From Lingula anatina (taxonomy: Eukaryota; Animalia; Brachiopoda): a stretch of 64,000 nucleotides of DNA. The DNA is taken from contig CM120643.1 of assembly GCA_051362555.1 (NCBI GenBank), forward strand, positions 11,382,644 to 11,446,643, written 5' to 3'. A program made the translations under genes and the position numbers. Below are positions 45,001 through 64,000 of this stretch, in pieces. Under the pieces are notes generated by a model, which saw only the letters and a list, made by a program, of their open reading frames with translations, did not search any database and was not told the origin of the DNA. Position 1 is the stretch's first letter. Every line of letters begins with the position of its first letter.

Positions 45001-48000
45001 TGGATCATCTTTAAAGCTAGAATTGGGGGCCTTGATGAAGTGACCCGGGCGCGTTTCCACATTTTTTATGAATGACAGGTGTGGTAGATTGATTTTCGTC
45101 ACTTTTTGGAAAAATCGGAGACGGGTCGATTTTTGGTGATTTTGAGTGATTTTGAACAGTGCCGGCACTGTGAGATTTCTTCAATTTTGGCCAGGTAGGG
45201 ATGAAAAATTTTTTTCTTCATTATAGTGTCAGGTAGGAATGTTCGGTCATTTGTAGTAAGAATAAAGTGCTGGAATAGTGGTGGTGTCAACATTAAGGAA
45301 GAAATAGAGCAAAAACTCTGTCTCCCCCCCCCCCCCCCCCCTCTCAGATTCTGTTCTCAGAGCTTATTTTTGGATCATCTTTAAAGCTAGAATTGGGGGC
45401 CTTGATGAAGTGACCCGGGCGCGTTTCCACATTTTTGAACAGTGCCGGCACTGTGAGATTTCTTCAATTTTGGCCAGGTAGGGATGAAAATTTTTTTTCT
45501 TCATTATAGTGTCAGGTAGGTGTGTTCGGTCATTTGTAGTAAGAATAAAGTGCTGGAAGAGTGGTGGTGTCAACATTAAGGAAGAAATAGAGCAAAAACT
45601 CTGTCTCCCCCCCCCTCTCAGATTCTGTTCTCAGAGCTTATTTTTGGATCATCTTTAAAGCTAGAATTGGGGGCCTTGATGAAGTGACCCGGGTGCGTTT
45701 CCACATTTTTTATGAATGACAGGTGTGGTAGATTGATTTTCGTCACTTTTTGGAAAAATCGGAGACGGGTCGATTTTTGGTGATTTTGAGTGATTTTGAA
45801 CAGTGCCGGCACTGTGAGATTTCTTCAATTTTGGCCAGGTAGGGATGAAAATTTTTTTTCTTCATTATAGTGTCAGGTAGATGTGTTCGGTCATTTGTAG
45901 TAAGAATAAAGTGCTGGAAGAGTGGTGGTGTCAACATTAAGGAAGAAATAGAGCAAAAACTCTGTCTCCCCCCCCCCCCTCTCAGATTCTGTTCTCAGAG
46001 CTTATTTTTGGATCATCTTTAAAGCTATAATTGGGGGCCTTGATGAAGTGACCCGGGCGCGTTTCCACATTTTTTATGAATGACAGGTGTGGTAGATTGA
46101 TTTTCGTCACTTTTTGGAAAAATTGGAGACGGGTCGATTTTTGGTGATTTTGAGTGATTTTGAACAGTGCCGGCACTGTGAGATTTCTTCAATTTTGGCC
46201 AGGTAGGGATGAAAATTTTTTTTCTTCATTATAGTGTCAGGTAGGTGTGTTCAGTCATTTGTAGTAAGAATAAAGTGCTGGAAGAGTGGTGGTGTCAACA
46301 TTAAGGAAGAAATAGAGCAAAAACTCTGTCTCCCCCCCCCCTCTCAGATTCTGTTCTCAGAGCTTATTTTTGGATCATCTTTAAAGCTAGAATTGGGGGC
46401 CTTGATGAAGTGACCCGGGCGCGTTTCCACATTTTTTATGAATGACAGGTGTGGTAGATTGATTTTCGTCACTTTTTGGAAAAATCGGAGACGGGTCGAT
46501 TTTTGGTGATTTTGAGTGATTTTGAACAGTGCCGGCACTGTGAGATTTCTTCAATTTTGGCCAGGTAGGGATGAAAATTTTTTTTCTTCATTATAGTGTC
46601 AGGTAGGTGTGTTCGGTCATTTGTAGTAAGAATGAAGTGCAGGAAGAGTGGTGGTGTCAACATTAAGGAAGAAATAGAGCAAAAACTCTGTCTCCCCCCC
46701 CCCCCCCCCCCGTCTCAGATTCTGTTCTCAGAGCTTATTTTTGGATCATCTTTAAAGCTAAAATTGGGGGCCTTGATGAAGTGACCCGGGCGCGTTTCCA
46801 CATTTTTTATGAATGACAGGTGTGGTAGATTGATTTTCGTCACTTTTTGGAAAAATCGGAGACGGGTCGATTTTTTGTGATTTTGAGTGATTTTGAACAG
46901 TGCCGGCACTGTGAGATTTCTTCAATTTTGGCCAGGTAGGGATGAAAATTATTTTTCTTCATTATAGTGTCAGGTAGGTGTGTTCGGTCATTTGTAGTAA
47001 GAATAAAGTACAGGAAGAGTGGTGGTGTCAACATTAAGGAAGAAATAGAGCAAAAACTCTGTCTCCCCCCCCCCCTCTCAGATTCTGTTCTCAGAGCTTA
47101 TTTTTGGATCATCTTTAAAGCTAGAATTGGGGGCCTTGATGAAGTGACCCGGGCGCGTTTCCACATTTTTTATGAATGACAGGTGTGGTAGATTGATTTT
47201 CGTCACTTTTTGGAAAAATCGGAGACGGGTCGATTTTTGGTGATTTTGAGTGATTTTGAACAGTGCCGGCACTGTGAGATTTCTTCAATTTTGGCCAGGT
47301 AGGGATGAAATTTTTTTTTCTTCTTTATAGTGTCAGGTAGGTGTGTTCTGTCATTTGTAGTAAGAATAAAGTGCTGGAAGAGTGGTGGTGTCAACATTAA
47401 GGAAGAAATAGAGCAAAAACTCTGTCTCTCCCCCCCCTCTCAGATTCTGTTCTCAGAGCTTATTTTTGGATCATCTTTAAAGCTAGAATTGGGGGCCTTG
47501 ATGAAGTGACCCGGGCGCGTTTCCACATTTTTTATGAATGACAGGTGTGGTAGATTGATTTTCGTCACTTTTTGGAAAAATCGGAGACGGGTCGATTTTG
47601 GTGATTTTGAGTGATTTTGAACAGTGCCGGCACTGTGAGATTTCTTCAATTTTGGCCAGGTAGGGATGAAAATTTTTTTTCTTCATTATAGTGTCAGGTA
47701 GGTGTGTTCAGTCATTTGTAGTAAGAATAAAGTGCTGGAAGAGTGGTGGTGTCAACATTAAGGAAGAAATAGAGCAAAAACTCTGTCTCCCCCCCCCCCC
47801 CCTCAGATTCTGTTCTCAGAGCTTATTTTTGGATCATCTTTAAAGCTAGAATTGGGGGCCTTGATGAAGTGACCCGGGTGCGTTTTTTTTCTTCATTATA
47901 GTGTCAGGTAGGTGTGTTTGGTCATTTTTAGTCAGTATAAAGTACTAGAACAGTGGTTTTGTCAACATGAAGGAAGAAATAGAGCAAATATTTTGGCCTA

Positions 48001-48060
48001 TCCCCCGTTTTAGCTATGTTCTCTGAGGTTATTTTTTGGATTATCTTTAAAGCTCTATTA
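1..48060. repeat. Tandem satellite array, ~360-365 bp monomer (~130 copies), continuing off the left edge
   Basis: Near-identical unit (...CTCTGTCT-polyC-TCTCAGATTCTGTTCTCAGAGC...GAAGTGACCCGGGCGCGTTTCCAC...ACAGTGCCGGCACTGT...) recurs every ~361 bp. Length varies mainly in the poly-C tract. The last monomer (~47880-48060) is degenerate. Confidence 0.99.
32520..37860. repeat. Divergent satellite subfamily block (type B, ~15 monomers)
   Basis: Same monomer frame with many fixed diagnostic changes (TAAGGTCCGGATATGGCAG, CAAATCCTGTTCTCAGGTGTGCTTTCTGGC, GTGAGGGTAAAG). A/B chimeric monomers at ~32520, ~34270, ~36410 and ~37860. Confidence 0.95.
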
Positions 48061-49147
48061 AGAGATTATTGCAAAAAAAAATTTTTTTTTTTTTTTGAAA
48101 AAAGTCAGAAACTAACATTAAATGTAGAAATGGATTCATTAACATTTGGTAACATTTTTTGGCAAAAACAAACAGTTAAATATCACCAAAATTGCACATA
48201 TAGGAATGTACCATTATTATATACACATGATCAGTATTTCATAATCGTAAGCTAGGTGCAGTCTTAGTTTGATTATTTGGTAGCAGACACAGGATATTGG
48301 AGCTACTATTATTTTGGCAAAGCAAAGGACACCAGGCTAGGCAGTGAAAAAAAAATAGAATTTTCTCTTCTAGTTGGTCATGTTAACATTTGTGGCAGAT
48401 GAAATTATTTTTTTAAAAAATCTCTCTATTACGGTGCCTTAAACTCACTGTCAGTACTACTGACAATATTATTATGAAACTATTATGAAACTACAAAGAC
48501 AAATTTTAAAACCAATAAAAAGGAAATAACAGCTAAAAAGACCATTTTACAATAATATTCTTTCATTCTGTTTATACTGAATAAATATCAAATTTCCATG
48601 ACAGTTTATAAGTGTCTTTACTACTTCACGCTAATAGCATTTTTAAGTAATGCATGTTTAATTGGTGAATAGCTTTTGCTTGGAGAAATGTGACCTCTCT
48701 TTGGGAGGGACCGTATCTTGATTGTTTTAAGATTGCACCGACTCACTTGTTTAATAAAATTTATTTTGTTTCAAGGCAGTTATTGGTTATTTGAAAAATA
48801 ATGGCAGATTTAAGCTTGAAATATCAGGGTGTTCTCTTTTTGTTAAGTTTATTACTGATGATGACGCTGCATTGTACCAACTCAATATGCAGAAACTAAT
48901 TGGGCCTGCATCAACTTTTCTCAAAGTTGCAAATACATAACGGGAGGCTTTATTTTGTCTAAAGTCTTTGCATGTATATGTTGAATCGTTTGAAAAGCAG
49001 ATCTAAAATAATCAGATTTGGCACATAATACTCGGCATTAAGACGTATGATCTTGTATGACCTGCAAAGTAAAAAAATATGTAGGTTTTGAATTATTCAG
49101 GGGGTTTTAGTGGCAAATAAGCGTAAAACAATTCAACCTCATTGGTA

Positions 49148-49185
49148 TAGCTTTTCTTTGATATTTGTTGGTCCTGAAAAGGACC
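49148..49185 (-). terminator. H4 histone 3' stem-loop and histone downstream element (HDE)
   Basis: Minus strand GGTCCTTTTCAGGACC (49170-49185), followed by purine-rich AAAGAAAAGCTA. Confidence 0.95.
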
Positions 49186-49211
49186 GTTTGTTTTCTCATT
49201 GAAAGATTTCC

Positions 49212-49532
<321 letters not shown>

Positions 49533-49544
49533 TCAAGGCTATAG

Positions 49545-49636
49545 TCAGAATGATGAAAAATTTTCAATTTTGGATTATAAATACCTTCTTATCCGACGCC
49601 AACGACCTTCAGTAATGAATCTTAATTTGATTGGTC
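49545..49636 (-). promoter_or_regulatory. H4 core promoter (CCAAT, TATA, CATTC cap motif)
   Basis: Minus strand CCAAT (~49631-49635), TATTTATAA (~49576-49584) and CATCATTC (~49548-49555) about 30 nt downstream of the TATA. Confidence 0.7.
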
Positions 49637-49898
49637 CAAACCATCAAATGTTTGCTTCACTCTCCATGCAGAGTCCCTGCTCGTTGAGAGTTAGAAAGGA
49701 TCTCTCTGCTTTGAGAGTAGACAATAATGTTCATGTCAATAATAAACTCTTCTTCTACGGGTGAGGGGGCCAAGACTACATTTATTTAAACGACTACAAT
49801 AGCAGAAAAACTTAGTACACTTCACTTTTTTACTTTCTCAATAAACACTTTATTTGTCGACACATAAATATGCGTGCCATTTGTGCACTATGCCTCGG

Positions 49899-52119
49899 CT
49901 TGTAGCCTGTAGTATAAGTTTGCAACGGCAAAGCCGTTGCGGGAAAGTTACGAGGTCTCATGCATCGAGATGCAAGAGCCTCTTTCAATCCCCGAGTTCT
50001 TGTATATTGTCTTCTACCTCTATTGCTGTTGCACGTCTGTCCGTGGTGGTATTTTGGGTGGCTTGGATTTTTTCTTTTTTCTTTTTTTTTTTTTTTCTTT
50101 CTCCTTCCTCTTACGCTGGCCGCCCCTCCAGCTTGTGTATTTTTTTCCAGATGATTCTTTTCTTTCTTTTTTTTTTTTCCTTGTTTCCGCCGTGATTATT
50201 CCAATTCTTTCACCTTGTCTCCGATCGTCGGGTGACCAGATTTTTTCCTTAATTTTGAATTGGTGTTGCCCTTTTCAGGGGCAGTGGTATTTTCTCCGGT
50301 CGTCGGGAGACCGAAGCCGCCAGGTTTTTCGTGCACGATCTGTATCATTATTTATATAAATCAAGGGTAGTATTTTTGCCTGGTTTGCTTAGTATTATGT
50401 TTTTCAGCTTTAGTTCTTTAAATAGGAGGTTATTTTCAAACCTGCTGATTGTTTTTGTGCCCAGAAAAAATAGTCTGCTTGATATATATTCAATGTTGGC
50501 CAGCTCGTGCAGAGTTGTAATTCGGGTACTTGTAGGAAGTTTGAGTGCTATGCGTAGCGCTCTATTTTGAATTTTTTGGAGGTCGTTGAGCCTTGTTTTT
50601 TTGGTAGCCGCTAGTATGACCGCACCGTATTCGAGTATGGGTCGAATGAATGATTTGTATAATTTTAGGAGGCAGGCACTCGAAGCCCCCCAGTTTGTAC
50701 CTCTCAGTCTGATAAGAAGGCCAGTTCTTTTCCTGGCTCTTTTCACTATATTGTCGACGTGTTTTTTAAATGATAGTTTCCTATCAAATGTGATTCCTAG
50801 CAGTGTTACTTCCTCACATGTTTCTAAACGGTCACCAAAAAGTGTGAGGTTGAGCTTAGGTTGTTGATTTGATTTTGAAAAGATGATTAATTGTGTTTTT
50901 TTTGGTGTTTAGTTTAATCCGCCATAGAGAGCACCATAGTTCGAGATCCTTTATCACACCCGTCAGTCTAGTTTCTATGTTTTTGACATTTTTGCATGAT
51001 GTCCACATGCCCAAATCGTCTGCAAATTGAGAGACCTCGGTGTTGTATCTTGGGTTTATTGGTAGGTCGTTCACATATATTAGGAATAGCAACGGGCTGA
51101 TTACAGACCCCTGAGGCGTGCCAGCATTAAGACTTACATATTCGGATGCCTCGCCTTTGATTCTGACCTTGATCTTTCTGTCTTTCAAAAAAGATGACAG
51201 CAAGCGGACAATCTTAACTGGCAGGTTACTATGTGCTAATTTGTACCTTAACCCAGCGTGCCAAACTGAGTCAAAAGCCTTCTCCACGTCCAGCATCATA
51301 GCGCCCGTAGCCCAGCCTTTGTTCATTGCCAATTGTGCACTTTCAGCTAATCTGAGCACATGCTCCATTCCTTCTTTCTTGCTCATGTACGCTCTTTGCC
51401 ATTTATTGAAAAATTGGTCATTTTCTAGTTTTTCTTTTATTCTAGTGGCGATTATTCTCTCGAATAGTTTGCCTAGGCAGCTTAGCAGGCTGATCGGTCT
51501 GTAATTCGTTGTTACTTTGTGATCTTTCTCAGGTTTGGGTATCATTATACCAGTTGCTTTTTTCCATATTGTGGGGAAATATCCCAACTGCAGACAGTTG
51601 TTATAAATGTCGCATAGTTTGTTTTTCAGACATTCAGGCGCTTTTTTAATTATCCCGTTTGTTATTGTGTCGTCACCTGGTGACGTGTTTTTTGTATTTT
51701 TCAGATTTCCGTTAAGTTCATCTATTGTGATTTTATCTAGAATTTTGTGATCGTCCCCTTCTTCTAGTGTCGGGTTAGATAAGGGATCGAATTTGTGTTT
51801 GTTTTTAACGACGTAGTTTTCCACCACCACTTTAAAACCGTCGTCGAATATGACCCCCTCGTGGGTGTTATGTATCTTGCCAAGGGTATTTGCAAATGCA
51901 TTTGCTTTCTCCGCATCGTTTGTTGTAAGTTGCCCATTTTCTTTGAGTACAGGCTTTTCAGATGTTTCTTTAGCAGTGCCAGTGCTAGTTAGCCTTTTAA
52001 ACATGTCCCAGAAGGTCTTGTCCATTTTTCTTTCATTTAGCATAGAGGTAGCGGTTTCCCAAGCTTTTTGTTTTTCTTTTTTGATGGCTTCTTTGACCCG
52101 TTTTGTCATATAGTTGTAC
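49899..52119 (-). mobile_element. 5'-truncated non-LTR retrotransposon (Jockey/I-group LINE) with 14-bp TSD
   Basis: RT half of ORF2 is homologous to 56616-58386. TSD GCACTATGCCTCGG at 49885-49898 and 52120-52133. 3' hairpin at 49922-49940. Confidence 0.95.
50348..52119 (-). pseudogene. Truncated, frameshifted LINE ORF2 (RT and C-terminal domain)
   Basis: Motifs YRPISLL, DVEKAFDSVWH, GTPQGSVISP, QFADD. A +1 base in the T-run at ~50896-50903, relative to the intact copy, splits it into the ORFs 50856-52160 and 50348-50746. No endonuclease domain. Confidence 0.9.
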
Positions 52120-52125
52120 GCACTA

Positions 52126-52756
<631 letters not shown>

Positions 52757-52780
52757 ATTCTGCGTTACTCTCAACAAAAC

Positions 52781-52818
52781 GGTCCTTTTCAGGACCACTA
52801 CAAAAATCAGAAAAGCTA
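52781..52818 (+). terminator. H3 histone 3' stem-loop and HDE
   Basis: GGTCCTTTTCAGGACC at 52781-52796, then CAGAAAAGCTA at 52808-52818. Confidence 0.95.
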
Positions 52819-54066
52819 AACCATAACTGTTGACATGAATTGTGAATTCTGCATTGCCTTCGTAGTTTCATCATAAGTAAAGTTGATAATTAAGTTAATT
52901 GTTAATTAATACCTCATTTCTTTATGATGATTGCTATTTATCTCAATTATACCGACAATTTGTAATTATTGGACTAATGAGCAACTTACGTATCGTTCAC
53001 ATTTCACTTTAGATTCACAAAGGCACTAGATGAATCGGAACAACTCCATACCCAGCACGTTAATTTGTTTTTACCTTAAAGAAGTAATAAGAAGGTTGTA
53101 CAATTCCTTCAAGATCAAAACCAAATTTAATGTTAGGAGCTATCTTAGAGTAGCAATAAAAGGTTAAGAAAATTATAAACATCTCCAAAAAGTACCACAT
53201 TTTTTTTTCACGGAAGGGGAGTAAACCAATCCAGGCATCATTTGATTTTATTTTTTCGTTTATTTGTTGAAGTAATTTGATCTTTTTTTTTATTAAATAA
53301 TACTGAGACAGTAACTTTTTATAGTATGTACACTTTTAATAACAGTTAATTGAAGTTCCTTAAATTCCCATAAGATCCCTGTTTATGCAGTTTTTTTTTT
53401 TTTTAATCAATGTCTCTGCTTTAAGTTACTGCAATTTGTATAAATAAGCTTGATATTAAACTTTACTTATTCATTTATTTTAACAAATTGAGAGATCTGG
53501 AGTCTCCTAAGACGACATGGACAATCCAGCTATCCGTTCGACTTACTCTGATCGACTTACTCTGATCTTTCTGATCTCTAGTTACAAAGTTCTCCTGACA
53601 TATAGTAATACACACAAAAAACAAGTCAGAGATATTGAAGACAATCAACAGAATTAAGACATATTACTAGAGACCTGTAACATAATTAAACTCAGATGGC
53701 TTAAATAGAACTTAACTTGGAGATGAAGCCGTAAATAAAGTTATTCAATCCTTTTAAAACTAAAAACATCCTTAAAAACTTGGTTTGAGTTCTTTCCAAT
53801 GAATAAAATACATTAACATATTCTTGAATATCATTATAACCGAGGCATTCTTCACCAAATGTTGATATAATTTGATTTAAATGTGGAAGTTTCTAAAATG
53901 AAGTTCGGCCGTGAAATCACCACTACATTACAATCATATTCATTTGGATTGTTACAAACTTTTACAAAGACATACACATAAATGCATGGCTACCATATGT
54001 ATACACGGTACAGATTGGTAAAAGAAAGACACTGTGGGGAAAGGAAAAATTAATTACAGTCATAGA

Positions 54067-54918
54067 TACGGAGCTTTGTTAGTATCATATTAACTTTTTT
54101 CCTATTTTCATTTAAGTTTTATTTTATGGAATTTTCACCGCGGTGAAAATAATTTACACCGCGGTGGAAAATAATTTACACCGCGGTGGAAAATAATTTT
54201 CACCGCGGTGGTAATTCCTGGCCATCTCGGCCCGGGTGATGAATAGGTAATGAGAACCTTACATTTGCCAGATGTCGTCACGGTGCATGCTATTGTACAT
54301 ACAGAAGGCTGGTGGATCTGTTCGTGGGGCCACTGCCGTTAACTTAGGTTTCCCATCTATATTTACCACCTATATAATTAAAGTCCCGCTTGCAGTTTTA
54401 TGCAAAGGGAATCCCATTGTTATTACTAAATACTTAACGTTAATTTTGGACAATGTATTTTTAAATATTTGTGTGATGTGTTAACCCATTCATCTTATCT
54501 TAAAAGATGTAATCTCGGTTTCCTTGGAGAGGTTTCTTTCTACCAATACTCCCAATAATACGCGTTATTACAAAGGGAAAAGCGACGTACAACATTGCAG
54601 CATTTTGGTGATTTTTAATCTATGCGAATACTGCCCGCCTCCTCCACATTCCTGGGATGATTGGCACATAGACCGGTTAAACCGCGTGCATGTGCATGTG
54701 AGTGTCTTTATCAACTTCCTTCCCAGAAATCTGGTAATTTTTGGATTCGTATAACCTACATGTATGCATCACCCGGGCTGAGATGGCCAGGAATTACCAA
54801 CGCGGCGAAAATTATTTTCCACCGCGGTGAAAATTAATTCCCACCGCGGTGTAAATTCCGTATAATAAAACTTAAATGAAAATAAGAAAAGTTAATATGA
54901 TACTAACAAAGCTCCGTA
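54067..54918. mobile_element. Non-autonomous TIR DNA transposon (MITE), IS3EU-like termini
   Basis: Long TIRs at 54067-54241 and 54767-54918 starting TACGGAGCTTTGTTAGTATC. 6-bp direct repeat CATAGA at 54061-54066 and 54919-54924. Subterminal CACCGCGGTG palindromic repeats. No transposase. Confidence 0.9.
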
Positions 54919-55612
54919 CATAGAAGTAATGCAATAGTTTGTATTATATTTTTAAAATTAAAAATACATCTTCTCAAAAAGTTCAAGATAAAGTATAGTG
55001 TCATCAGAAGTATAGATATAATATATTGTAATAAAATTAGAAAAAACACTGAAGATTGTGCAACTACATATTGAAGTTAGGTTCAAGTTGAGAAGTAAAT
55101 TGGGGTATATTATTTCTTTATTACACAACATGGAGTAATTATGTGAAAAGCTTTTGGTTTAATTTGTATATGGGAATTAAAAAATGTAACAGATGTCAAT
55201 TAGTTGGGAAAAAAAGTGGTGTTTAATATTTTGAAAGAACAATACATTCAATCTCAGAGAAATGAGGTGTATATTTCACCTGACCAAAAGCACATAAGTT
55301 TAAATGTATGTAATTGATTCAGATGTAAATACCTATGGAAGTTGTAATATGATACTATAAATTTTAGGAAACTTCATGAATACTGACAAGTTTACTTATT
55401 TCATAATACTGGTCCAAAGATTAGATGGATGATATTTTAAGTTACATTATTGGTTATTAGATAAGAGATTTTCTGGAACTAAATTTTGCTTTGAGATAAA
55501 GATATATAAATTCAAAACCTATATAATCATATAAGAATAAGCATTAGAGATGTCCATTATTGAGGGAGATGTTAAAACATACATATATGTTCCATCATAA
55601 TGAACATTGGCA

Positions 55613-55651
55613 TAGCTTTTCCTTGACTATGAGGTGGTCCTGAAAAGGACC
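55613..55651 (-). terminator. H2A histone 3' stem-loop and HDE
   Basis: Minus strand GGTCCTTTTCAGGACC (55636-55651), then CAAGGAAAAGCTA. Confidence 0.95.
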
Positions 55652-55678
55652 GTTTGTTGTAAATTTGCAAACAGCATT

Positions 55679-56056
55679 TTACTTGGCAGCTGCCTTGCTT
55701 TTCTTGGGCAGAAGGACAGCCTGGATGTTTGGCAGAACACCACCCTGGGCAATGGTGACCCCTCCCAACAGCTTGTTCAATTCCTCGTCGTTACGGACAG
55801 CCAACTGCAAGTGACGGGGGACAATTCTGGATTTCTTGTTGTCACGGGCAGCATTTCCCGCCAACTCGAGGACCTCAGCGGCCAGATACTCGAGGACGGC
55901 AGCCAGGTACACTGGGGCACCGGCTCCAACACGCTGGGCGTAGTTACCCTTGCGGAGCAGACGGTGGATTCTGCCCACTGGGAACTGAAGTCCAGCACGG
56001 GATGATCTGCTCTTCCCCTTTGCTCTTGCCTTTCCTCCCTTTCCACGTCCAGACAT
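55679..56056 (-). CDS. H2A: Histone H2A (canonical); ORF intact but separated from its promoter by the LINE
   Basis: 125 aa from ATG at 56056 ([29 protein letters not shown]...[11 protein letters not shown]); 3' stem-loop. Confidence 0.98.
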
Positions 56057-56254
56057 CTTGTACGTTTTCTTTTGATACAACAATTGACCAAAGAATGGCG
56101 AAATGATGATGTATAGGTATGTGTCGGCGAAGCCGACACGGGAAAGTTACGAAGTCTCGTGCATTAAAATACAAGAGCTTCTTTCAATCCCCAAAACGTG
56201 TTTATTGTCTTCTACCTCTATTGTTTGTCTGTACGTGGTTTTGGCCTCGCTTGG

Positions 56255-56305
<51 letters not shown>

Positions 56306-56615
56306 ACCGTCTCTTTCCAGTTTGCGCGCTGGCCGCCCCTTCCAGCTTGTTAATTTTTTCCAGATGTTTGTTAATATAAATATTTTTATATATAATATAC
56401 ATATATTATATACCTTTTTTCCTCCGCCTTTATAGTATTATTGTGTTTTCTCATTCCATTTCCTTGTCTCTGGTCATCGGGAGCCCAGATGTGTTTATCC
56501 TTATTTTGTGGACTGAGGTTGCCCTTTTCAGGGTTGTATTTTTCCTTTCTTCCTCCGGTCATCGGGAGACCGGGGTCGCTACCGTTAGACCGTTTCATAT
56601 GCACAATTTGTACCA

Positions 56616-59342
56616 TTATTTATATAAGTCAAGGGTAGTATTTTTGCCTGGTTTGCTTAATATTATGTTTTTTAGCTTAAGTTCTTTGAATAGATGGCTA
56701 TTTTCGAACCTGCTAATTGTTTTTGTGCCCAGAAAAAATAGTCTGCTTGATATATATTCAATGTTGGCCAGCTTGTGCAGCGTTACGATCGAAGTTTTTG
56801 TTGGTAATTTGAGCGCTATTCGTAGCGCTCTATTCTGGATTTTTTGCAGATCTTTGAGCCTTGTCTTGTTGATGCCAGCTAGTATAACTGCCCCGTACTC
56901 AAGTACGGGCCGAATGAAGGATTTATATAGTTTGAGGAGGCAGGCACTCGATGCCCCCCAGTTTGTTCCTCTGAGTCTTATGAGAAGGCCAGTTCTTTTC
57001 CTAGCTCTTTTCACTGTGTTGTCTACGTGTTTTTTGAAACCTAGTTTTCTGTCGAATGTGATTCCCAGCAGTGTGACTTCCTCACATGTTTCTAATCGGT
57101 CGCCAAATAATGTGAGGTTAAGCTTGGGTTGTTCATTTGATTTTGAAAAGATGATTAATTGTGTTTTCTTGGTGTTTAGTTTTATCCGCCATAGAGAGCA
57201 CCATAATTCGAGATCCTTTATCACGCCCGTCAGTCTGATTTCTATGCTTTTTACATTTTTGCATGATGTCCACATGCCTAAATCGTCTGCAAATTGAGAG
57301 ACCTCGGTGTTGTATCTTGGGTTTATTGGTAGGTCGTTCACATATATTAGAAATAGCAACGGGCTGATTACAGACCCCTGAGGCGTGCCAGCATTGAGAC
57401 TAACATATTCGGATTCCTCGCCTTTGATTCTGACCTTGATCTTTCTGTCTTTCAAAAAAGATGACAGCAAGCGGACAATCTTAACTGGCAGGTTACTATT
57501 TGCTAGTTTGTACCTTAACCCAGCGTGCCAAACTGAGTCAAAAGCCTTCTCCACGTCCAGCATCATAGCGCCCGTAACCCAGCCTTTGTTTATTGCCAGT
57601 TGTGCACTTTCAGCTAGTCTTAACACATGTTCCATTCCTTCTTTCTTGCTCATGTACGCTCTTTGCCATTTATTGAAAAATTGGTCATTTTCTAGTTTTT
57701 CTTTTATTCTAGTGGCGATTATTCTCTCGAATAGTTTGCCTAGGCAGCTTAGCAGGCTGATCGGTCTATAATTCGTTGTTACTTTGTGATCTTTCTCAGG
57801 TTTGGGTATCATTATACCAGTCGCTTTTTTCCATATTGTGGGGAAATATCCCAACTGCAGACAGTTGTTATAAATGTCGCATAGTTTGTTTTTCAGACAT
57901 ACAGGCGCTTTTTTAATTATCCCGTATGTTATTGTGTCGTCACCTGGTGACGTGTTTTTTGTATTTTTCAGATTTCCGTTAAGTTCATCTATTGTGATTT
58001 TATCTAGAATTTTGTGATCGTCCCCTTCTTCTAATGTCGGGTTAGATAAGGGATCGAATTTGTGTTTGTTTTTACCGACGTAGTTTTCCACCACCGCTTT
58101 AAAACCGTCGTCGAATATGACCCCCTCGTGGGTGTTATGTATCTTGCCAAGGGTATTTGCAAATGCATTTGCTTTCTCCGCATCGTTTGTTGTAAGTTGC
58201 CCATTTTCTTTGAGTACAGGCTTTTCAGATGTTTCTTTAGCTTTGCCAGTGCTAGTTAGCCTTTTAAACATGTCCCAGAAGGTCTTGTCCATTTTTCTTT
58301 CATTTAGCATAGAGGTAGCGGTTTCCCAAGCTTTTTGTTTTTCTTTTTTGATGGCTTCTTTGACCCGTTTTGTCATATAGTTGTACATGATTTTATAGAA
58401 AGGGCCTTCTTTCTTTTGAGCCAGGCGTCTTAGTTTTCTTTTCAGTTTTATAAGCTTAAGGGTGTCCTCGCTTACTCTCCATACATTTTCTCGTACCTTT
58501 GTTTTTGGGCATGCGGTTTCAAGTGCATTTACTAGTGTCTCGGTCACATTCTCACAAGCTTCGTCTATTCCAGTGGTGGTAGGTGTGACTGCGTCGCCAT
58601 TTAGATTTTCAGAAATTAGATGGTCAAACAGTGGTTGGTTTATTTTTCTTGTATTCCGCCGTAAGACAGTTGGTGCTCTTGCTATTCGGTTATTCTGAAT
58701 GATTTTTACGTGTAGGGGTAGATGGTCGCTACCGACGTCTTCACCTACATAACAGTCCGCTATTTTCGAGTAAAGTTGAGTCGTGACAAAAGCCATGTCC
58801 AGCGTATCAGTATTGCCATTAGTGGCCATGTGCGTAGTTTCGCCATTATCATTAAGATTTATCAGATCTAGTTCCTCAGTTATGTCAAAGAGAACGTTTC
58901 CGTTATTGTTCGTTTTCTTGCAACCAAAGAAAGCGTGCTTACTGTTAAAATCGCCTATAAATAGACAATTTTGATATTGATCAGTAAAGTGCTTAAATAC
59001 TGCTTTGTCAGGGGTTGTATGAGGTGGGTTATACAGTGAAACTATAGCCGTTTTTATTTGATTTATCGTAGTTTCTATCCCCAGTATTTCAGCATTAAGG
59101 TTGCTGGTATTGATAGCTTGGAACTTTACATCTTTCTTAACGAGTATAGCCACTCCGCCTCCATGCGCATCTCTGTCCCTGCGCAACACCTGATAGCCGC
59201 TCACAGATATTTTTGTCTTCTCACTCAACTTTGTCTCGTTTATGCATACGATGTCAGGTTTATGCTCTACCAGATATTCAACTAAGAGTTGTTTCTTGGT
59301 TTTAAGACTGTTTATGTTGATATGCATCAGGTGTGCCGCCAT
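56616..59342 (-). CDS. LINE ORF2: APE endonuclease plus reverse transcriptase, 908 aa, no evident RNase H
   Basis: APE motifs HININSL, INETKL, GGGVAI, GDFNS, TLDM, SDHLP. RT motifs YRPISLL, DVEKAFDSVWH, PQGSVISP, FADD. C-terminal LYKSFIRPVLEYG. Confidence 0.97.
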   Translation of the reverse strand: MAAHLMHININSLKTKKQLLVEYLVEHKPDIVCINETKLSEKTKISVSGYQVLRRDRDAHGGGVAILVKKDVKFQAINTSNLNAEILGIETTINQIKTAIVSLYNPPHTTPDKAVFKHFTDQYQNCLFIGDFNSKHAFFGCKKTNNNGNVLFDITEELDLINLNDNGETTHMATNGNTDTLDMAFVTTQLYSKIADCYVGEDVGSDHLPLHVKIIQNNRIARAPTVLRRNTRKINQPLFDHLISENLNGDAVTPTTTGIDEACENVTETLVNALETACPKTKVRENVWRVSEDTLKLIKLKRKLRRLAQKKEGPFYKIMYNYMTKRVKEAIKKEKQKAWETATSMLNERKMDKTFWDMFKRLTSTGKAKETSEKPVLKENGQLTTNDAEKANAFANTLGKIHNTHEGVIFDDGFKAVVENYVGKNKHKFDPLSNPTLEEGDDHKILDKITIDELNGNLKNTKNTSPGDDTITYGIIKKAPVCLKNKLCDIYNNCLQLGYFPTIWKKATGIMIPKPEKDHKVTTNYRPISLLSCLGKLFERIIATRIKEKLENDQFFNKWQRAYMSKKEGMEHVLRLAESAQLAINKGWVTGAMMLDVEKAFDSVWHAGLRYKLANSNLPVKIVRLLSSFLKDRKIKVRIKGEESEYVSLNAGTPQGSVISPLLFLIYVNDLPINPRYNTEVSQFADDLGMWTSCKNVKSIEIRLTGVIKDLELWCSLWRIKLNTKKTQLIIFSKSNEQPKLNLTLFGDRLETCEEVTLLGITFDRKLGFKKHVDNTVKRARKRTGLLIRLRGTNWGASSACLLKLYKSFIRPVLEYGAVILAGINKTRLKDLQKIQNRALRIALKLPTKTSIVTLHKLANIEYISSRLFFLGTKTISRFENSHLFKELKLKNIILSKPGKNTTLDLYK

Positions 59343-59386
59343 CTTTGGGTAGGGGTTTGATGCGTGTTAGTGTGTTTGAGTCTGTT

Positions 59387-61090
59387 TTACTTAAAGGCAA
59401 CGTGGTGGATAGTTTCACCATCTATGCTGACCTTGTAAGTAGTTGCTACAGCCTCTGCTATGTCTTTACATATGTCGCTTTCGTTTGCCTGTATTTTTAG
59501 TCTTTTTGAAGTCACTTTGATCAGTAATTTGGCTAGGCATATGGCCAGTTTGATAGATTCAGCAACATTCCCTTTCTTGGCATTGTCTATTGATATGCGT
59601 TTTTGTTCGGTGTTCATTTCTTTTTTATACACCTTGCATCCTTTGAAAGATGCCGGGTGTTCTTCTTTACAATTGGCACATTTGCGGGTGCTTTCTTTGC
59701 ACTCCTTATGACTGTGCGCCCCGCCACAGTTTTTGCAAGTCTCGGCTGACTTGCAGTGTTCGGCTACGTGCCCGAACTGTTGACACTTGTAGCACTGTTG
59801 TACTGGTGCTGTGACTGGCTTGTAGTCACGAATTTTGTATTTTTGATAACCCAGCAATAAACCGTTTTCAATCAACTCTTTCTTTTGATTTTTGTTTTCA
59901 CACGTAATTTTCACCTTGTTAATTTCGCTTCCTGTTTTAGCGCTGAACATACGCTTAGCTAACAGACCTTTTTCTTTTCTAATTTCATCGTCTGTTATTG
60001 AAACTGCTATGTTGCAGATGACCACGCACAAATTCTCTTTACTTTGTTTTTTGTTCGCTACTTTTCTTATGCCAACCTCATTTAGTTGGCTTTCTTTATT
60101 TTTCAGGGCAAGTAGCTTCTCAGCCGAAACCTCATCTTTGGGAAAGATAAGGGTGTTACCTTTCTTTGTTTTCACAATTTTGGTGATATCGGCATCACCA
60201 AGTACCTTCTTTAACTTGAGTGGATTGTCATCCAGGTGCCTAGGCAAATTTTCTAAAAGTATGGGCCTAGGTCTTTCTGCTTTTTTGTTTTCTTGTCCGC
60301 TTTTTTTAGTTTTAGAGTGGACAACGGTCCACTCTGATTCCTCGGAGTTTCCCTCCTCGCCCCGTGGAGGGTCGTCTGCTGGAGCCTTCTCGGCGATTTT
60401 GCGGAAATCGCCTCCCACAGTCTCCACCTTCTCGTTCAATTTGGCCCTTTTCTCGGCCTTTTTCCTTGCTTTCTTTGAGAGATTATCTCCCTCCTTCTCC
60501 CCTCTAATGGGGCTGGTTTGGTCACCGACCAGAGGACCTGTCTTCCTCTTTTCCCCTTTTTTCTTTCTTTGCTCACTAACTGCCCAATCCATTTCGTTGT
60601 CCCCGGTCGTCGGGAGACCGGGTGTCTTGCCCTTTTTTGGATGGGTTTTGCCCTCTTCAGGGTCTATCATTTCTCTGGTCATCGGGAGACCAGAGATATC
60701 TGCCGCCTTTTTGTGGCCCTGAAAAGGACCACTGAGAGCTGGTACACGGCCCTGCTCTGTGTTTTGAATCTCCTCGCCCCTTGGAGAATTAACCAACCGA
60801 TTTGCAGGTACACGGCCCTGCTCCGCATCTGAATTCTCCTCGCCCATGGGAGAAGTTGTACTCGTATCTTCGCTTGCAGGTACACGGTCCTGCTCCGACA
60901 CCTGCATCTCCTCGCCCCTGGGAGAGCAATCCTGTTCATACTTACCTTCGCCACAGGGATCAGCTAGCAGAGCTTGCCGAAGCTGTGGCGGTAGAGATGC
61001 CAGTACCTCCCTAAGGTGGTTCAACATCTCTACCTCATCGTCCTTAAAAGGACGTTTTGTGTTGGAAACAACAGCCTTAGCGTAGGACAT
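59387..61090 (-). CDS. LINE ORF1 gag-like nucleic-acid-binding protein with three zinc knuckles
   Basis: CYKCQQFGHVAEHC, CKNCGGAHSHKEC and CANCKEEHPASFKGC. Likely start MSYAKAV at 61090; an in-frame upstream ATG exists at 61162. Confidence 0.93.
   Translation of the reverse strand: MSYAKAVVSNTKRPFKDDEVEMLNHLREVLASLPPQLRQALLADPCGEGKYEQDCSPRGEEMQVSEQDRVPASEDTSTTSPMGEENSDAEQGRVPANRLVNSPRGEEIQNTEQGRVPALSGPFQGHKKAADISGLPMTREMIDPEEGKTHPKKGKTPGLPTTGDNEMDWAVSEQRKKKGEKRKTGPLVGDQTSPIRGEKEGDNLSKKARKKAEKRAKLNEKVETVGGDFRKIAEKAPADDPPRGEEGNSEESEWTVVHSKTKKSGQENKKAERPRPILLENLPRHLDDNPLKLKKVLGDADITKIVKTKKGNTLIFPKDEVSAEKLLALKNKESQLNEVGIRKVANKKQSKENLCVVICNIAVSITDDEIRKEKGLLAKRMFSAKTGSEINKVKITCENKNQKKELIENGLLLGYQKYKIRDYKPVTAPVQQCYKCQQFGHVAEHCKSAETCKNCGGAHSHKECKESTRKCANCKEEHPASFKGCKVYKKEMNTEQKRISIDNAKKGNVAESIKLAICLAKLLIKVTSKRLKIQANESDICKDIAEAVATTYKVSIDGETIHHVAFK
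60715..60730 (-). other. Histone-type 3' stem-loop embedded in LINE ORF1 (sense strand)
   Basis: Minus strand GGTCCTTTTCAGGGCC followed by ACAAA; 15/16 identical to the stem-loop of the four neighbouring histone genes. Confidence 0.75.
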
Positions 61091-61166
61091 TATTGGTATT
61101 AGCTTGGTATTCAATGAATGATGGAATGTCGAATGATCGAATGAATGATCGAATCGAATCATGATG

Positions 61167-61201
61167 AGAATGGCGAAAATTATTCAAAATAGGTATTTAT
61201 A
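61167..61201 (-). promoter_or_regulatory. Displaced H2A core promoter (TATAAATA plus CATTC cap motif), now directly upstream of the LINE
   Basis: Minus strand GGCTATAAATACCTATTTTGAATAATTTTCGCCATTCT. TATA at 61194-61201; the cap-motif A at 61171 is 30 nt away. Removing the LINE rejoins it to the H2A 5' UTR. Confidence 0.85.
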
Positions 61202-61782
61202 GCCATCGGTGGGGATTCAGTGCTGCACGCAAATCTGTCCAGTAAGAAAGCGTAGTCGGAATAACTGCCAATAGGTAAAGAGAGCGCTTAACTTGCCCTC
61301 GTTCTCACTGTGCAGCATTCGAGCCTCTAATTTGCATAAATCTATATTAGATTATTTGGTACCAGCATAAAGTTTACAGGGGCCATGAACTAACTATAGG
61401 TATAGTTTTGCACGATAGAAACAAGTGCTTCACACATCCTCCTTCCAATAACATAATTTTTATATATATAATGGTCACGGTTTGAGGGGTTGAATACCTC
61501 ATAAAGGCTTTTATTGTATTGCTCTAAACAAAGTTGACGTACGTCATGTTAGACTTGATTGAAATCGTAGGACACCTTAATTGCTGTCAGCTATTTCATT
61601 ACATAGAAGTTTTCTCTACTTCTATGTTGATTACAATCATTACTTTGATGTGACAGCTCATTGAACATAACGTCTGATTTGACACATGAACTGCTGTCAA
61701 GGAATTGAAACTAACAGCATACGCACGCTGTTCGTTAATGATGAGACCATTTTGATCTGTTTTCGTGAGGTCAATGCTATTT

Positions 61783-61923
61783 TGCCTCGGCTTCGACGCT
61801 GCATCTGTTGCGCGCTGGGAACTTCAACCAATCCGATTGTGAATTTCACAACGTGTAGCGCTGGATCCCCTTATTTGCATAACGCGTTGTATTTATACAA
61901 AACGCTCCCTTCCTGCAGTATTC
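61783..61923 (+). promoter_or_regulatory. H2B promoter: shared motif, CCAAT, octamer, TATA
   Basis: TGCCTCGGCTTCGACGCTGCA at 61783-61803; CCAAT ~61829; CCTTATTTGCATAA with octamer at 61873-61880; TATTTATA at 61890-61897; GTATTC ~61918. Confidence 0.8.
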
Positions 61924-61956
61924 AACGTTCATATTGCACGCTAGAATACAAGTACC

Positions 61957-62325
61957 ATGCCTCCCAAAGTGAGCTCCAAGGGCGCCAAGAAAGCCGGTAA
62001 GGCTAAGGCAGCACGCAGTGGTGACAAGAAGAGAAGGAGGAAGAGAAAGGAAAGCTACAGCATCTACATCTACAAGGTGATGAAACAGGTGCACCCTGAC
62101 ACCGGTATCTCCAGCAAAGCCATGAGCATCATGAACAGCTTTGTCAATGACATCTTTGAACGTATTGCCGGTGAAGCTTCCCGCCTTGCCCACTACAACA
62201 AGCGTTCCACCATCACCAGCCGAGAGGTCCAGACTGCTGTCCGTCTCTTGCTGCCTGGTGAGCTTGCCAAGCACGCTGTCAGTGAGGGCACAAAGGCCGT
62301 CACCAAGTACACCAGCTCCAAGTAA
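61957..62325 (+). CDS. H2B: Histone H2B (replication-dependent)
   Basis: 122 aa H2B ([32 protein letters not shown]...TKYTSSK); 3' stem-loop. Confidence 0.99.
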
Positions 62326-62352
62326 ATCGACAAATCGTTGGTTTACACAAAC

Positions 62353-62392
62353 GGTCCTTTTCAGGACCACCCATGTTTTCCAAGAAAAGATA
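62353..62392 (+). terminator. H2B histone 3' stem-loop and HDE
   Basis: GGTCCTTTTCAGGACC at 62353-62368, ACCCA, then CAAGAAAAGATA at 62381-62392. Confidence 0.95.
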
Positions 62393-63730
62393 TACCAGTA
62401 CGTTAACGTACATGCTTATATATATTCCATTTTATCTAAATTCTGTACATTTCCTGGTTCTGTTATATTAGATGATTTAACATTTATGTGATGCCTCACT
62501 TTATTTAACATAACGATCATGTAGCAAAGCTGTCTGAAAAATGCTTTACGCTCACAATATTCAGCATATATACCCATGAAATTTTATAGCCACACCGCAT
62601 GATTTCTAGAAAAAATATAGTAAAATCTTTTTAATTTATCTCTTTATGTTTATGTCAGGAAAAGTTAGTAAATAACAATACAAAAATCTTGATAGCTTCC
62701 AAGTTCTAACCATGTGTGAAAGGCAATTCAACAAGAAACCTCTTTGCAATATACAGCCCTTTTACTAACATTCATACATGTATTACATTATTGATAGAAG
62801 TGCAATATAAACATATATTTGTTAAAAAAAAAAAAAAGATTTTCGCAAACTAGTTTAAAAGACCCAATTGAAACAAACTCTCAAGCACAGTTTCTGTTCA
62901 CACTTTCTTATCATACGTATGTATTGGTGGAAATGTGCAATGTAGTTTTCACGATAGTTCTCAACACAAAAACATACTTAGACTACAACATAACCAGTGC
63001 ATATTATACTGATCAATATGAAGGTATTTACTTTTAAATAGTACATAATTTTCCCTTAAACATTACTGTGCTTTGATGCAGTGCTTTTGAGCAACTCTTT
63101 TATCAGAGGATATGTGGCACGTACCTTTCTAGAACTTTCAGTAACAGCCAATGAATTAGTTTAATGCCCCCTCCCCCTTTTTTTACATTAGAAACACAAG
63201 CCCACTTAAATATGGCATGGGTTCAGGGGCATTTTGGAAATTATAAATTGAATGTCATCTTTGGACAACTTTTTCCACAGATCCTACATATTTCTGACAT
63301 TTTCATTTTATGCCTTTATAATTGTCATGTCTCAGGTGTGTATGTACCGGTCGGCAACATTGATGAAACGTGTTTTAAATTGTCAATCTGAAATGAATAA
63401 ATTGTTTTCCAAAGAACAACCATTAATTGCATACCGTCATGTTGAACGCTGTTCAAAATCATGATTAAATTACAATGAATACTAAAATCTTGTAACGTAT
63501 CATATTTTATAGCGATTTACAACCCAAGGGAATTCCCAGCCTCACTTTCGTCACTGAGACGATATCAACTTCCGGTGTATTGCACATGGGGAGTGCAACG
63601 TACACATTAAATTCTGGACTCTTGCTAAAAGAATCGACACAAGGTGGTATATTAAGTCTGAGTTACGCACTTGAGGTTTGCTATTTTCAAAAGAGAATTA
63701 ATGCTTAAATGTTTTGTGATGATGTGACCT

Positions 63731-64000
63731 CTTGTCTTCATTAAAGCGTATCCCCTTTCTTCTGGCTGTATCTAATACAACGCGCAGAGTCGCATCGTGG
63801 TCAGATCCGTCTTCCTGCCAACCTGCTATGATAAGGTCGGCGGCGATTCCGGTACACCCTGGAATGTCTTTGAAGACTTCTTCAATCTTGGCTTGGAAGA
63901 CGTCTTGAGATAGCGAGAGGCCAAAGGGTAGTCTGTTGTATCTAAATCTTCCAAAGGGCGTATTGAAGGTAGTCAGAAGAGAACTTTCTTCATCTAACGT
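63731..64000 (-). mobile_element. Ty3/Gypsy LTR-retrotransposon reverse transcriptase fragment, probably inactive; runs off the right edge
   Basis: Manual translation: TLDEESSLLTTFNTPFGRFRYNRLPFGLSLSQDVFQAKIEEVFKDIPGCTGIAADLII...GIRFNEDK. The catalytic xADD reads IAAD, and the frame stops shortly after FNEDK. Confidence 0.88.

What the first reader, a model, noticed from the sequence alone, without database searches (positions are those of the whole stretch)
56092..61201. Candidate new system: an intact LINE that captures a histone promoter by inserting at the H2A transcription start site
Seen: the 12-bp TSD (minus strand TTTCGCCATTCT) contains the H2A CATTC cap motif. The element is co-oriented with H2A and begins ~35 nt below TATAAATA. 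Its 5' UTR is only ~75 nt, and both ORFs are open. Established: replication-dependent histone promoters are multicopy and strongly active in S phase, and R1/R2 elements similarly exploit host rDNA transcription. Inference: this family uses redundant histone genes as a safe harbour and gains S-phase or cleavage-stage expression. The embedded histone stem-loop, the non-poly(A) end and the second promoter insertion all point the same way. I cannot confirm novelty without a database search.
Basis: partly seen in the sequence, partly recalled or inferred. Interest (0 to 1): 0.92.

Follow-up and report, generated by a model that had tools for sequence, protein, structure and literature searches.

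The report
LINE that targets histone gene promoters
An intact jumping gene (a LINE) sits six bases after the predicted start site of a histone H2A gene, sister copies lie in the H3/H4 promoter and just before an H2B start site, and it carries two copies of the hairpin that marks histone messenger RNAs, so the family likely homes in on histone promoters and likely borrows them to be transcribed.

Summary
Observation confirmed and extended. A 5,063-bp Jockey-like LINE (both ORFs open, 12-bp TSD) starts at +6 of the predicted H2A cap site. A truncated sister copy with its own 14-bp TSD lies in the H3/H4 promoter, not at a cap site. RNA reads from a public run reveal a third site: the element's 3' end joined 10 nt upstream of the H2B cap site, co-oriented and read through. 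In that run the element is transcribed sense-strand end to end, with nothing upstream of the H2A promoter. The 5' UTR is an array of the histone cap word ATTC. Target sites share little sequence, so targeting looks positional. Not shown: the genome-wide share of copies in histone genes, the true start site, SLBP binding, S-phase expression. None of 16 close relatives lies beside a histone gene, although 2 of 5 scorable ones start just below a TATA/CCAAT promoter. Ten literature searches found no histone-targeting LINE; unchecked scan notes report some in other clades. Verdict: a new variant of multicopy-gene-targeting LINEs.

The parts
61195..61201 (-). H2A TATA box, now driving into the element
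   Evidence: 30 nt upstream of ATTC; same spacing in H2B, 31-32 in H3 and H4
61167..61178 (-). 5' copy of the 12-bp TSD; holds the predicted H2A cap A at 61171
56104..61166 (-). Full-length LINE, copy 1 (5,063 bp)
61091..61166 (-). 5' UTR: 7 ATTC words in the first 60 nt; three ATCATTC, the 7-mer of the H3 and H4 cap sites, start at 61149, 61137 and 61122
   Evidence: (0 of 20,000 shuffles reach 7)
59387..61162 (-). ORF1, 591 aa (567 aa from the ATG at 61090), three CCHC knuckles at aa 457-509
   Evidence: aa 296-590 match ORF1 of relatives
61039..61054 (-). Histone-type stem-loop 1 (new): 6-bp stem, UUUA loop, A-rich 5' flank, 20 of 23 nt identical to the H2B 3' end
   Evidence: not listed by Rfam at E up to 5
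60715..60730 (-). Histone-type stem-loop 2: 15 of 16 to the host 16-mer with a G-U pair; 441 nt below the cap site against 445 nt in H2A itself
   Evidence: RNA reads of a variant copy continue to a perfect 16 of 16 (3 reads)
60585..60691 (-). Hairpin block in ORF1 repeated in the 3' UTR (about 70-75% identity)
56452..56571 (-). 3' UTR copy of the hairpin block
56616..59342 (-). ORF2, 908 aa: APE endonuclease + RT; no RNase H, no C-terminal CCHC
56104..56615 (-). 3' UTR (512 nt) with internal A48 tract, terminal hairpins and a short CAT-repeat tail
56092..56103 (-). 3' copy of the TSD
55679..56056 (-). Histone H2A, open, displaced 5 kb from its promoter; its stem-loop at 55636-55651
61910..61920 (+). 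H2B pre-cap region, empty in this window. Another copy's 3' end is joined at 61910 (cap -10, TATA +20)
   Evidence: (8 RNA reads, run X12)
61957..62325 (+). Histone H2B, divergent from H2A; stem-loop at 62353-62368
49899..52119 (-). Copy 2: 5'-truncated, one frame break in an A run near 50900, mosaic (96-99% to copy 1 in its 5' part, 82-89% in 3' ORF2)
52120..52133 (-). Copy 2 TSD, 5' copy (3' copy at 49885-49898), overlapping a motif that recurs in the H2A/H2B spacer near 61803 and before the H2A TATA near 61227
49945..49992 (-). Clade-conserved 3' RNA structure, shown on copy 2
   Evidence: 9 of 11 pairs with a change on both sides, 9 sequences
52346..52756 (+). Histone H3
49212..49523 (-). 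Histone H4

Best explanation
This is an intact, transcribed Jockey-like LINE with copies at three different histone promoter sites, which likely picks them by position rather than by sequence and likely uses the histone promoter to transcribe full-length copies. Step 1 (shown): insertions lie at the H2A cap site, 10 nt before an H2B cap site and in the H3/H4 spacer. Step 2 (inferred): the APE nick falls 20-23 nt below the TATA box; the three targets share little sequence, so the RNP is probably tethered by histone-promoter or histone-locus-body factors. Step 3 (inferred): with a 12-bp duplication the new 5' end lands at +6, under the intact TATA and cap site, so the host promoter reads the element from a few bases upstream. 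Each such round would add an ATTC-type tag to the 5' end, which would explain the tag array. Step 4 (shown for one H2B-linked copy): transcription runs through the 3' end into the histone gene. Step 5 (inferred): the conserved 3' structure, not poly(A), would mark where reverse transcription starts. Step 6 (speculative): the two histone-type hairpins would bind SLBP and aid expression or delivery to histone loci. My odds per step: histone-promoter preference 0.85, dependence on the host promoter 0.6, functional SLBP binding 0.4.
For: Three sites of three identified, two in this window and one in another sample's RNA (8 reads, 29 of 30 shown letters match the copy-1 end; the junction lies upstream of the predicted cap, so it is not a switch between two mRNAs). 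Chance per random insertion of landing within 20 nt of a core-histone start is 5e-6 to 5e-4 under assumed genome sizes and copy numbers. Both cap-site copies are co-oriented, at TATA+23 and TATA+20. Sense RNA covers all 26 bins of the laid element part in X12, with zero depth in the three bins upstream of 61224. Two stem-loops: 6 hits in 16.1 kb = 4 histone genes + 2 in ORF1; shuffles give one or more in 1 of 2,000 and two in 0 of 2,000; 1 weak hit in 332 kb of relatives. ATTC array: 0 of 20,000 shuffles. 3' structure covaries. 48 synonymous to 13 non-synonymous codon differences in 3' ORF2 between the copies.
Against: No genome-wide count: no genome was held and no survey of 3' junctions was obtained. 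The third site could only be seen because the H2B promoter lay in the stretch tested, and RNA favours copies under strong promoters. Copy 2 is not at a cap site. 0 of 16 close-clade loci has a histone gene beside it, and two relatives at 45-47% identity form clusters of 559 and 322 proteins, the listed members lying on many large contigs. RNA-seq did not resolve the start site and reads cannot be assigned to this copy. Run X15 laid only 6 reads. Hairpin 2 lacks the A-rich 5' flank and is below the Rfam cut-off; hairpin 1 has no purine-rich downstream element like the host genes' and Rfam does not list it. My hairpin definition was written after seeing hairpin 1. The ATTC array could equally be an internal initiator array or a simple repeat.
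Confidence: 0.55

Rival explanations
1. The family targets histone promoters but carries its own internal promoter (the ATTC array as an initiator cluster). The cap-site position reflects where the nick falls, and the hairpins are relics or serve a step other than transcription.
For: Internal 5' promoters are the norm for non-LTR elements (PMC1636488 Introduction). RNA coverage cannot tell +1 from +6 or +25. Copy 2 shows that insertion is not confined to the cap site.
Against: No Drosophila-type DPE at +28 to +33 of any of 7 candidate initiators (consensus recalled, weak test). The intact host TATA and cap site sit directly on the 5' end. The UTR word is specifically the cap word of all four host histone genes.
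Confidence: 0.2
2. The wider clade prefers Pol II start sites in general; histone genes are only the most numerous and most tolerant targets.
For: In 5 close relatives with a scorable 5' junction a TATA word lies 25-40 nt upstream in 3 (L006, L009, and L004, where it falls in an AT microsatellite). TATA plus CCAAT occurs in 2 of 5 against 0.56% of background positions (P about 3e-4; junctions placed by me, post hoc). L013 ends about 70 nt before the ATG of a co-oriented integrase-type gene. Drosophila elements, the I LINE among them, favour promoters de novo (PMC10018349 abstract passage).
Against: It does not explain the two histone-type hairpins, which are absent from relatives, nor three of three known sites in histone promoters. 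L012 and L015 show no TATA. Drosophila jockey dimers are no closer to genes than single insertions (PMC5932611 passage).
Confidence: 0.2
3. Chance insertions into a decaying histone cluster at the edge of a satellite array, with no targeting.
For: The cluster abuts 48 kb of a 361-bp satellite and holds other repeats; such regions collect elements.
Against: All four histone ORFs and stem-loops are intact. The H2B junction comes from another sample. The hairpins and the ATTC array are inside the element.
Confidence: 0.05

Closest known systems
Jockey-clade / I-group LINEs (jockey, TART; clade features recalled except as cited)
   Same: Two ORFs; ORF1 with three CCHC knuckles (as described for TART in PMC1636488); ORF2 APE+RT of about 900 aa without RNase H; a repeat shared between the ORF1 5' region and the 3' UTR, as in TART.
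   Different: Short tandem-repeat tail and a covarying 3' structure instead of poly(A); forms its own clade (support 0.998) beside insect Jockey-like proteins; jockey has an internal promoter and no reported histone targeting.
R1 and R2 (rDNA), Keno/Tx1 and Utopia (U2 snRNA): target-specific non-LTR elements of multicopy genes
   Same: Multicopy, highly transcribed target; R2 depends on flanking transcription (PMC4494074 passage); read-through transcripts.
   Different: Their targets are RNA genes, repeats or transposons at a fixed sequence (PMC4640811 passage). Here the target is a Pol II protein-coding gene family, three sites share little sequence, and the RT is not R2-like (APE, not RLE).
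Ty3, Tf1, Dictyostelium TRE5-A: position-specific elements tethered by transcription machinery
   Same: Insertion at a set distance from a promoter. Ty3 at Pol III and Tf1 at Pol II promoters (PMC10018349 passage); TRE5-A recalled.
   Different: Ty3 and Tf1 are LTR elements with their own promoters; TRE5-A targets tRNA genes; none is known to me to carry mimics of the target's RNA signals.
HeT-A telomeric retrotransposon
   Same: Transcription starts in upstream flanking DNA and reads into the element (PMC1636488 Introduction); stacked 5' tags are reported for it (recalled).
   Different: HeT-A borrows the promoter of a sister element at telomeres; here the donor would be a host histone gene.

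Membership tests
Autonomous APE-type non-LTR retrotransposon | ORF2 with APE endonuclease and RT | tested here: met
   Pfam PF03372, PF14529, PF00078
Autonomous APE-type non-LTR retrotransposon | TSD and 5'-truncated sister copies | tested here: met
   12-bp and 14-bp TSDs, truncated copy 2
Jockey clade | ORF1 with three CCHC knuckles | tested here: met
Jockey clade | ORF2 without RNase H | tested here: met
   no PF00075
Jockey clade | RT groups with reference Jockey elements | tested here: inconclusive
   No named reference elements were on hand; own clade beside insect proteins P0087 and P0109, deep nodes weak, midpoint root
Jockey clade | poly(A) tail (recalled as typical) | tested here: not met
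   CAT-repeat end; short repeat tails in relatives
Jockey clade | internal 5' promoter | not testable with these tools
   RNA-seq cannot resolve the start; no DPE consensus
R2 and other RLE site-specific elements | single ORF with restriction-like endonuclease | tested here: not met
   two ORFs, APE
R1 / Tx1 sequence-specific APE elements | one fixed target sequence | tested here: not met
   the three target sites share only a T followed by pyrimidines at the 3' junction; n = 3
Target-specific family by the Repbase working rule | more than 20% of flanks are one kind of sequence (PMC4494074 methods passage) | tested here: inconclusive
   3 of 3 identified sites, all ascertained through this window; no unbiased survey
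Replication-dependent histone 3' stem-loop (Rfam RF00032) | 6-bp stem, 4-nt U-rich loop, second pair G-C, top pair U-A | tested here: met
   both hairpins
Replication-dependent histone 3' stem-loop (Rfam RF00032) | Rfam gathering score of 34 bits, with flanks | tested here: not met
   18.4 bits for hairpin 2; hairpin 1 not listed; two of the four host hairpins also fall just short at 33.2 and 33.6
Replication-dependent histone 3' stem-loop (Rfam RF00032) | SLBP binding and U7-directed cleavage | not testable with these tools
   needs binding and processing assays

The most novel reading that the evidence does not exclude
A LINE that parasitises the histone locus body by mimicry. Its RNA carries two histone stem-loops that recruit SLBP, is thereby delivered to histone genes, inserts at a fixed distance below their TATA boxes, is transcribed from the captured histone promoter in S phase, and keeps a record of each round as a cap-site tag at its 5' end.
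Probability: 0.3. Interest if true: 0.93.

Novelty: new variant of a known kind. Interest (0 to 1): 0.78.

Why it matters
The target-specific LINEs in the papers I could check aim at RNA genes, repeats or other transposons through endonuclease sequence specificity. A LINE that finds a Pol II protein-coding gene family by position would extend the safe-harbour strategy to histone clusters. If it also carries working copies of that family's RNA signal, it would be the first case known to me of a retrotransposon mimicking histone mRNA. It gives a direct test of whether a nuclear body can act as the address for insertion and whether promoter capture ties retrotransposition to S phase. It may also be a source of histone-cluster turnover. 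Unchecked notes from this scan describe histone-start targeting in unrelated clades, so the strategy may have evolved repeatedly and gone unreported.

Tried and rejected
No whole genome was held, and no survey of 3' junctions in DNA runs was obtained, so the share of copies outside histone genes stays open. Of 70 loose ends, 18 were shown. I rejected the three element-body loose ends of run X1 (56792, 57215, 58868) as insertion flanks: each forms a doubled GATC word at a GATC site, as proximity-ligation chimeras do; I had first read two of them as histone-like flanks. The two body loose ends of X9 match copy-2-type sequence (by eye), not flanks. The 61183 loose end in X1 and X9 is an empty paralogous H2A promoter. 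Summed contig depth is not used as a copy number. No RNA run is listed as an indexed holder. Viral contigs: no relative. tblastn of the four histones on 80 loci: no real hit; the H2A start in L022 was found only by eye and motif. Rfam on 19 loci: nothing. A TSD search in 46 loci gave one plausible pair (L018), so most contigs join flanks of different copies. Initiator-like words after the 3' ends of relatives were rejected as evidence, since they may be tandem-repeat tails. A hammerhead reading of the 3' structure was rejected: only two stems. ORF1 homolog search gave 1 weak hit. PDB gave only L1, R2 and a group II intron RT. The Atlas gave generic APE-RT clusters; its ORF1 query did not complete. 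ORF1's 5' region has no histone-coding similarity beyond the hairpins. Five of seven look-ups of earlier findings were blank. bioRxiv 10.1101/2025.02.07.636160 was irrelevant.

Full report
SETTING. The window holds 48 kb of a 361-bp satellite (1-47885), then one core-histone unit: H4 (-), H3 (+), H2A (-), H2B (+), as two divergent pairs. All four ORFs are open and each is followed 25-28 nt later by the same 16-nt stem-loop. No whole genome was held.

OBSERVATION. ORF1 (59387-61162) has three CCHC knuckles. ORF2 (56616-59342, 908 aa) has APE and RT domains and no RNase H. In all four histone genes an ATTC lies 30-32 nt below a TATA-like box (the H3 box is non-canonical), so A61171 is the predicted H2A cap. 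The duplication begins at cap -7 (TATA+23) and the element at cap +6 (TATA+35). The host TATA and cap site thus sit intact on the element's 5' end, and H2A is displaced by 5 kb. A second, 5'-truncated copy (49899-52119) has its own 14-bp TSD in the H3/H4 spacer, 169 nt from the H3 cap and 334 nt from the H4 cap. Its site overlaps a motif that recurs twice in the H2A/H2B spacer. It is a mosaic, 96-99% identical to copy 1 in its 5' part and 82-89% in 3' ORF2, with 48 synonymous to 13 non-synonymous codon differences over 169 codons there.

INDEPENDENT DATA. Of 21 listed runs, 9 DNA runs of one organism, from 3 studies, hold half or more of the stretch's words; one may be the source. I laid 4 runs on 56310-61950. 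(a) RNA run X12 has 8 reads in which the element's 3' end (29 of 30 shown letters match copy 1) is joined to 61910 on the plus strand. That is 10 nt upstream of the predicted H2B cap and TATA+20, co-oriented with H2B. The window's own H2B is empty, so this is a third insertion, and it is read through into the histone gene. The junction lies upstream of normal H2B mRNA, which argues against a library artefact. (b) X12 covers all 26 element bins on the sense strand and is zero in the three bins above 61224; X15 laid only 6 reads. Reads cannot be assigned to a copy and the start is not resolved. (c) Both DNA runs show an empty paralogous H2A promoter. (d) 18 of 70 loose ends were shown. The three element-body ends in X1 are doubled GATC words and were dropped; two in X9 are copy-2-type sequence. 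None of the shown rows is a non-histone flank, but this is no survey. No survey of 3' junctions was obtained, so the share of copies outside histone genes remains unknown.

HISTONE SIGNALS INSIDE THE ELEMENT. The hairpin at 60715-60730 matches the host 16-mer at 15 of 16, expected 1e-5. Three RNA reads of a variant copy continue to 16 of 16 (loose end at 60718, read by eye). It lies 441 nt below the cap, against 445 nt in H2A. I found a second at 61039-61054, 20 of 23 nt identical to the H2B 3' end, A-rich flank included. Under one structural definition, 16.1 kb on both strands give 6 hits: 4 histone genes and these 2. Dinucleotide shuffles give at least one in 1 of 2,000 and two in 0 of 2,000; 80 related loci (332 kb) give 1 weak hit. 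Against: the definition was written after seeing the second hairpin; Rfam gives 18.4 bits to one and does not list the other; neither has the host genes' full flanks. The first 60 nt of the element hold 7 ATTC words (rest of element: mean 0.14, maximum 2; 0 of 20,000 shuffles), including three ATCATTC, the 7-mer of the H3 and H4 cap sites. These are either tags left by successive rounds of transcription from histone cap sites or a self-carried initiator array. No DPE consensus (recalled) follows any of 7 candidate starts.

RELATIVES. ORF2 has 139 homologs at E up to 1e-30, the best 57% identical. Of 98 metagenome loci 80 were kept. An RT tree of 136 sequences (query, 67 of 80 loci, 68 chosen proteins; 13 loci left out for short coverage) places the query in a clade with support 0.998 containing L001-L016, beside insect Jockey-like proteins; no named references were available. 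The clade shares a 3' RNA structure (9 of 11 pairs with double changes in 9 sequences) and short repeat tails. Histone neighbours: 0 of 16 in the close clade, though most contigs end near the element; 1 of 80 overall. That one, L022, belongs to the neighbouring clade and ends about 80 nt before a co-oriented H2A start codon. Of 5 close relatives with a scorable 5' junction, 2 (L006, L009) start 32-36 nt below a TATA with CCAAT upstream (background 0.56%, P about 3e-4, post hoc), 1 is ambiguous and 2 have none. L013 ends shortly before a co-oriented integrase-type gene. Two relatives form clusters of 559 and 322 proteins whose listed members lie on many large contigs. So histone specificity is not shown clade-wide; a looser start-site preference may be ancestral.

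MECHANISM. Shown: three histone-promoter sites, two at nearly the same distance from TATA; sense transcription; read-through into H2B; the two hairpins and the tag array. Inferred: positional nicking through tethering to histone-promoter factors; transcription from the captured promoter; 3'-structure-defined reverse transcription of read-through RNA. Speculative: SLBP binding. SLBP binds the stem-loop and acts in processing, translation and decay, and histone locus bodies concentrate the processing factors (PMC5706932 passages). I give the combined model 0.55, histone targeting with an internal promoter 0.2, general start-site preference 0.2 and chance 0.05.

LITERATURE. Ten searches (listings and abstract starts only) returned no paper describing a histone-targeting LINE or SLBP use by a retrotransposon. 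The library lacks most subscription journals and Repbase Reports, and no supplements were read. Passages read: PMC4640811 (targets listed as rRNA genes, spliced leaders, tRNA genes, transposons, microsatellites, telomeres; 'histone' 0 times); PMC8869645 ('histone' 0); PMC4494074 ('histone' 0; 20% rule; R2 depends on flanking transcription); PMC6719617 (safe havens; 'histone gene' 0); PMC10018349; PMC5932611; PMC7265360; PMC6136364 (TE fragments found in fish histone amplicons, no targeting claim in the passages); PMC1636488 (passages and Introduction). Recalled, from no call: single insertions of the 297 element in a Drosophila H3 TATA box and of TU elements in a sea-urchin H2B orphon; TRE5-A; HeT-A 5' tags. 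Five unchecked scan notes describe histone-start targeting by RLE, Tx1 and other LINEs in other genomes. They are leads, not support, and they lower the uniqueness of histone targeting as such; none mentions stem-loop mimicry in the lines shown.

VERDICT. New variant of a known kind. Interest 0.78.

Noticed in passing
L022:2073-2519: A Jockey-like LINE of the neighbouring clade (33% identity) ends about 80 nt before a co-oriented H2A start codon; a 22-nt word at its 3' junction is repeated 328 nt upstream. Possibly a second histone-associated lineage.
   Followed up: partly
L006:340-412; L009:60-134: Truncated relatives begin 32-36 nt below a TATA box with CCAAT upstream; the host genes are unidentified.
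   Followed up: partly
L013:2430-3491: Element 3' end lies just upstream of an intron-containing integrase-type gene (rve, Integrase_H2C2) in the same orientation.
   Followed up: partly
window 1-47885: 361-bp satellite, about 130 copies at 96-98% identity, directly abutting the histone unit.
   Followed up: no
window 54119-54260 and 54780-54900: Two blocks of a 22-bp repeat with a palindromic core, in inverted arrangement between H2A and H3; looks like a MITE or foldback element.
   Followed up: no
window 60741-60925: A 66-72-bp tandem repeat in ORF1 whose length varies among copies (joints); run X9 also shows a 586-bp skip at 59637-60224.
   Followed up: no
window 61780-61803, 61208-61227, 52123-52146: A motif shared by both divergent histone spacers and the H2A TATA region; a candidate histone-promoter factor site, hit by copy 2.
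   Followed up: partly
window about 57150: Copy 2 switches from 96-99% to 82-89% identity with copy 1: recombination or template switch between subfamilies.
   Followed up: partly
window 63730-64000: Looks by eye like a degenerate LTR-retrotransposon RT fragment; the one frame translated was not informative.
   Followed up: no
window 47900-64000: No H1 ORF of 90 aa or more appears in this histone unit.
   Followed up: no
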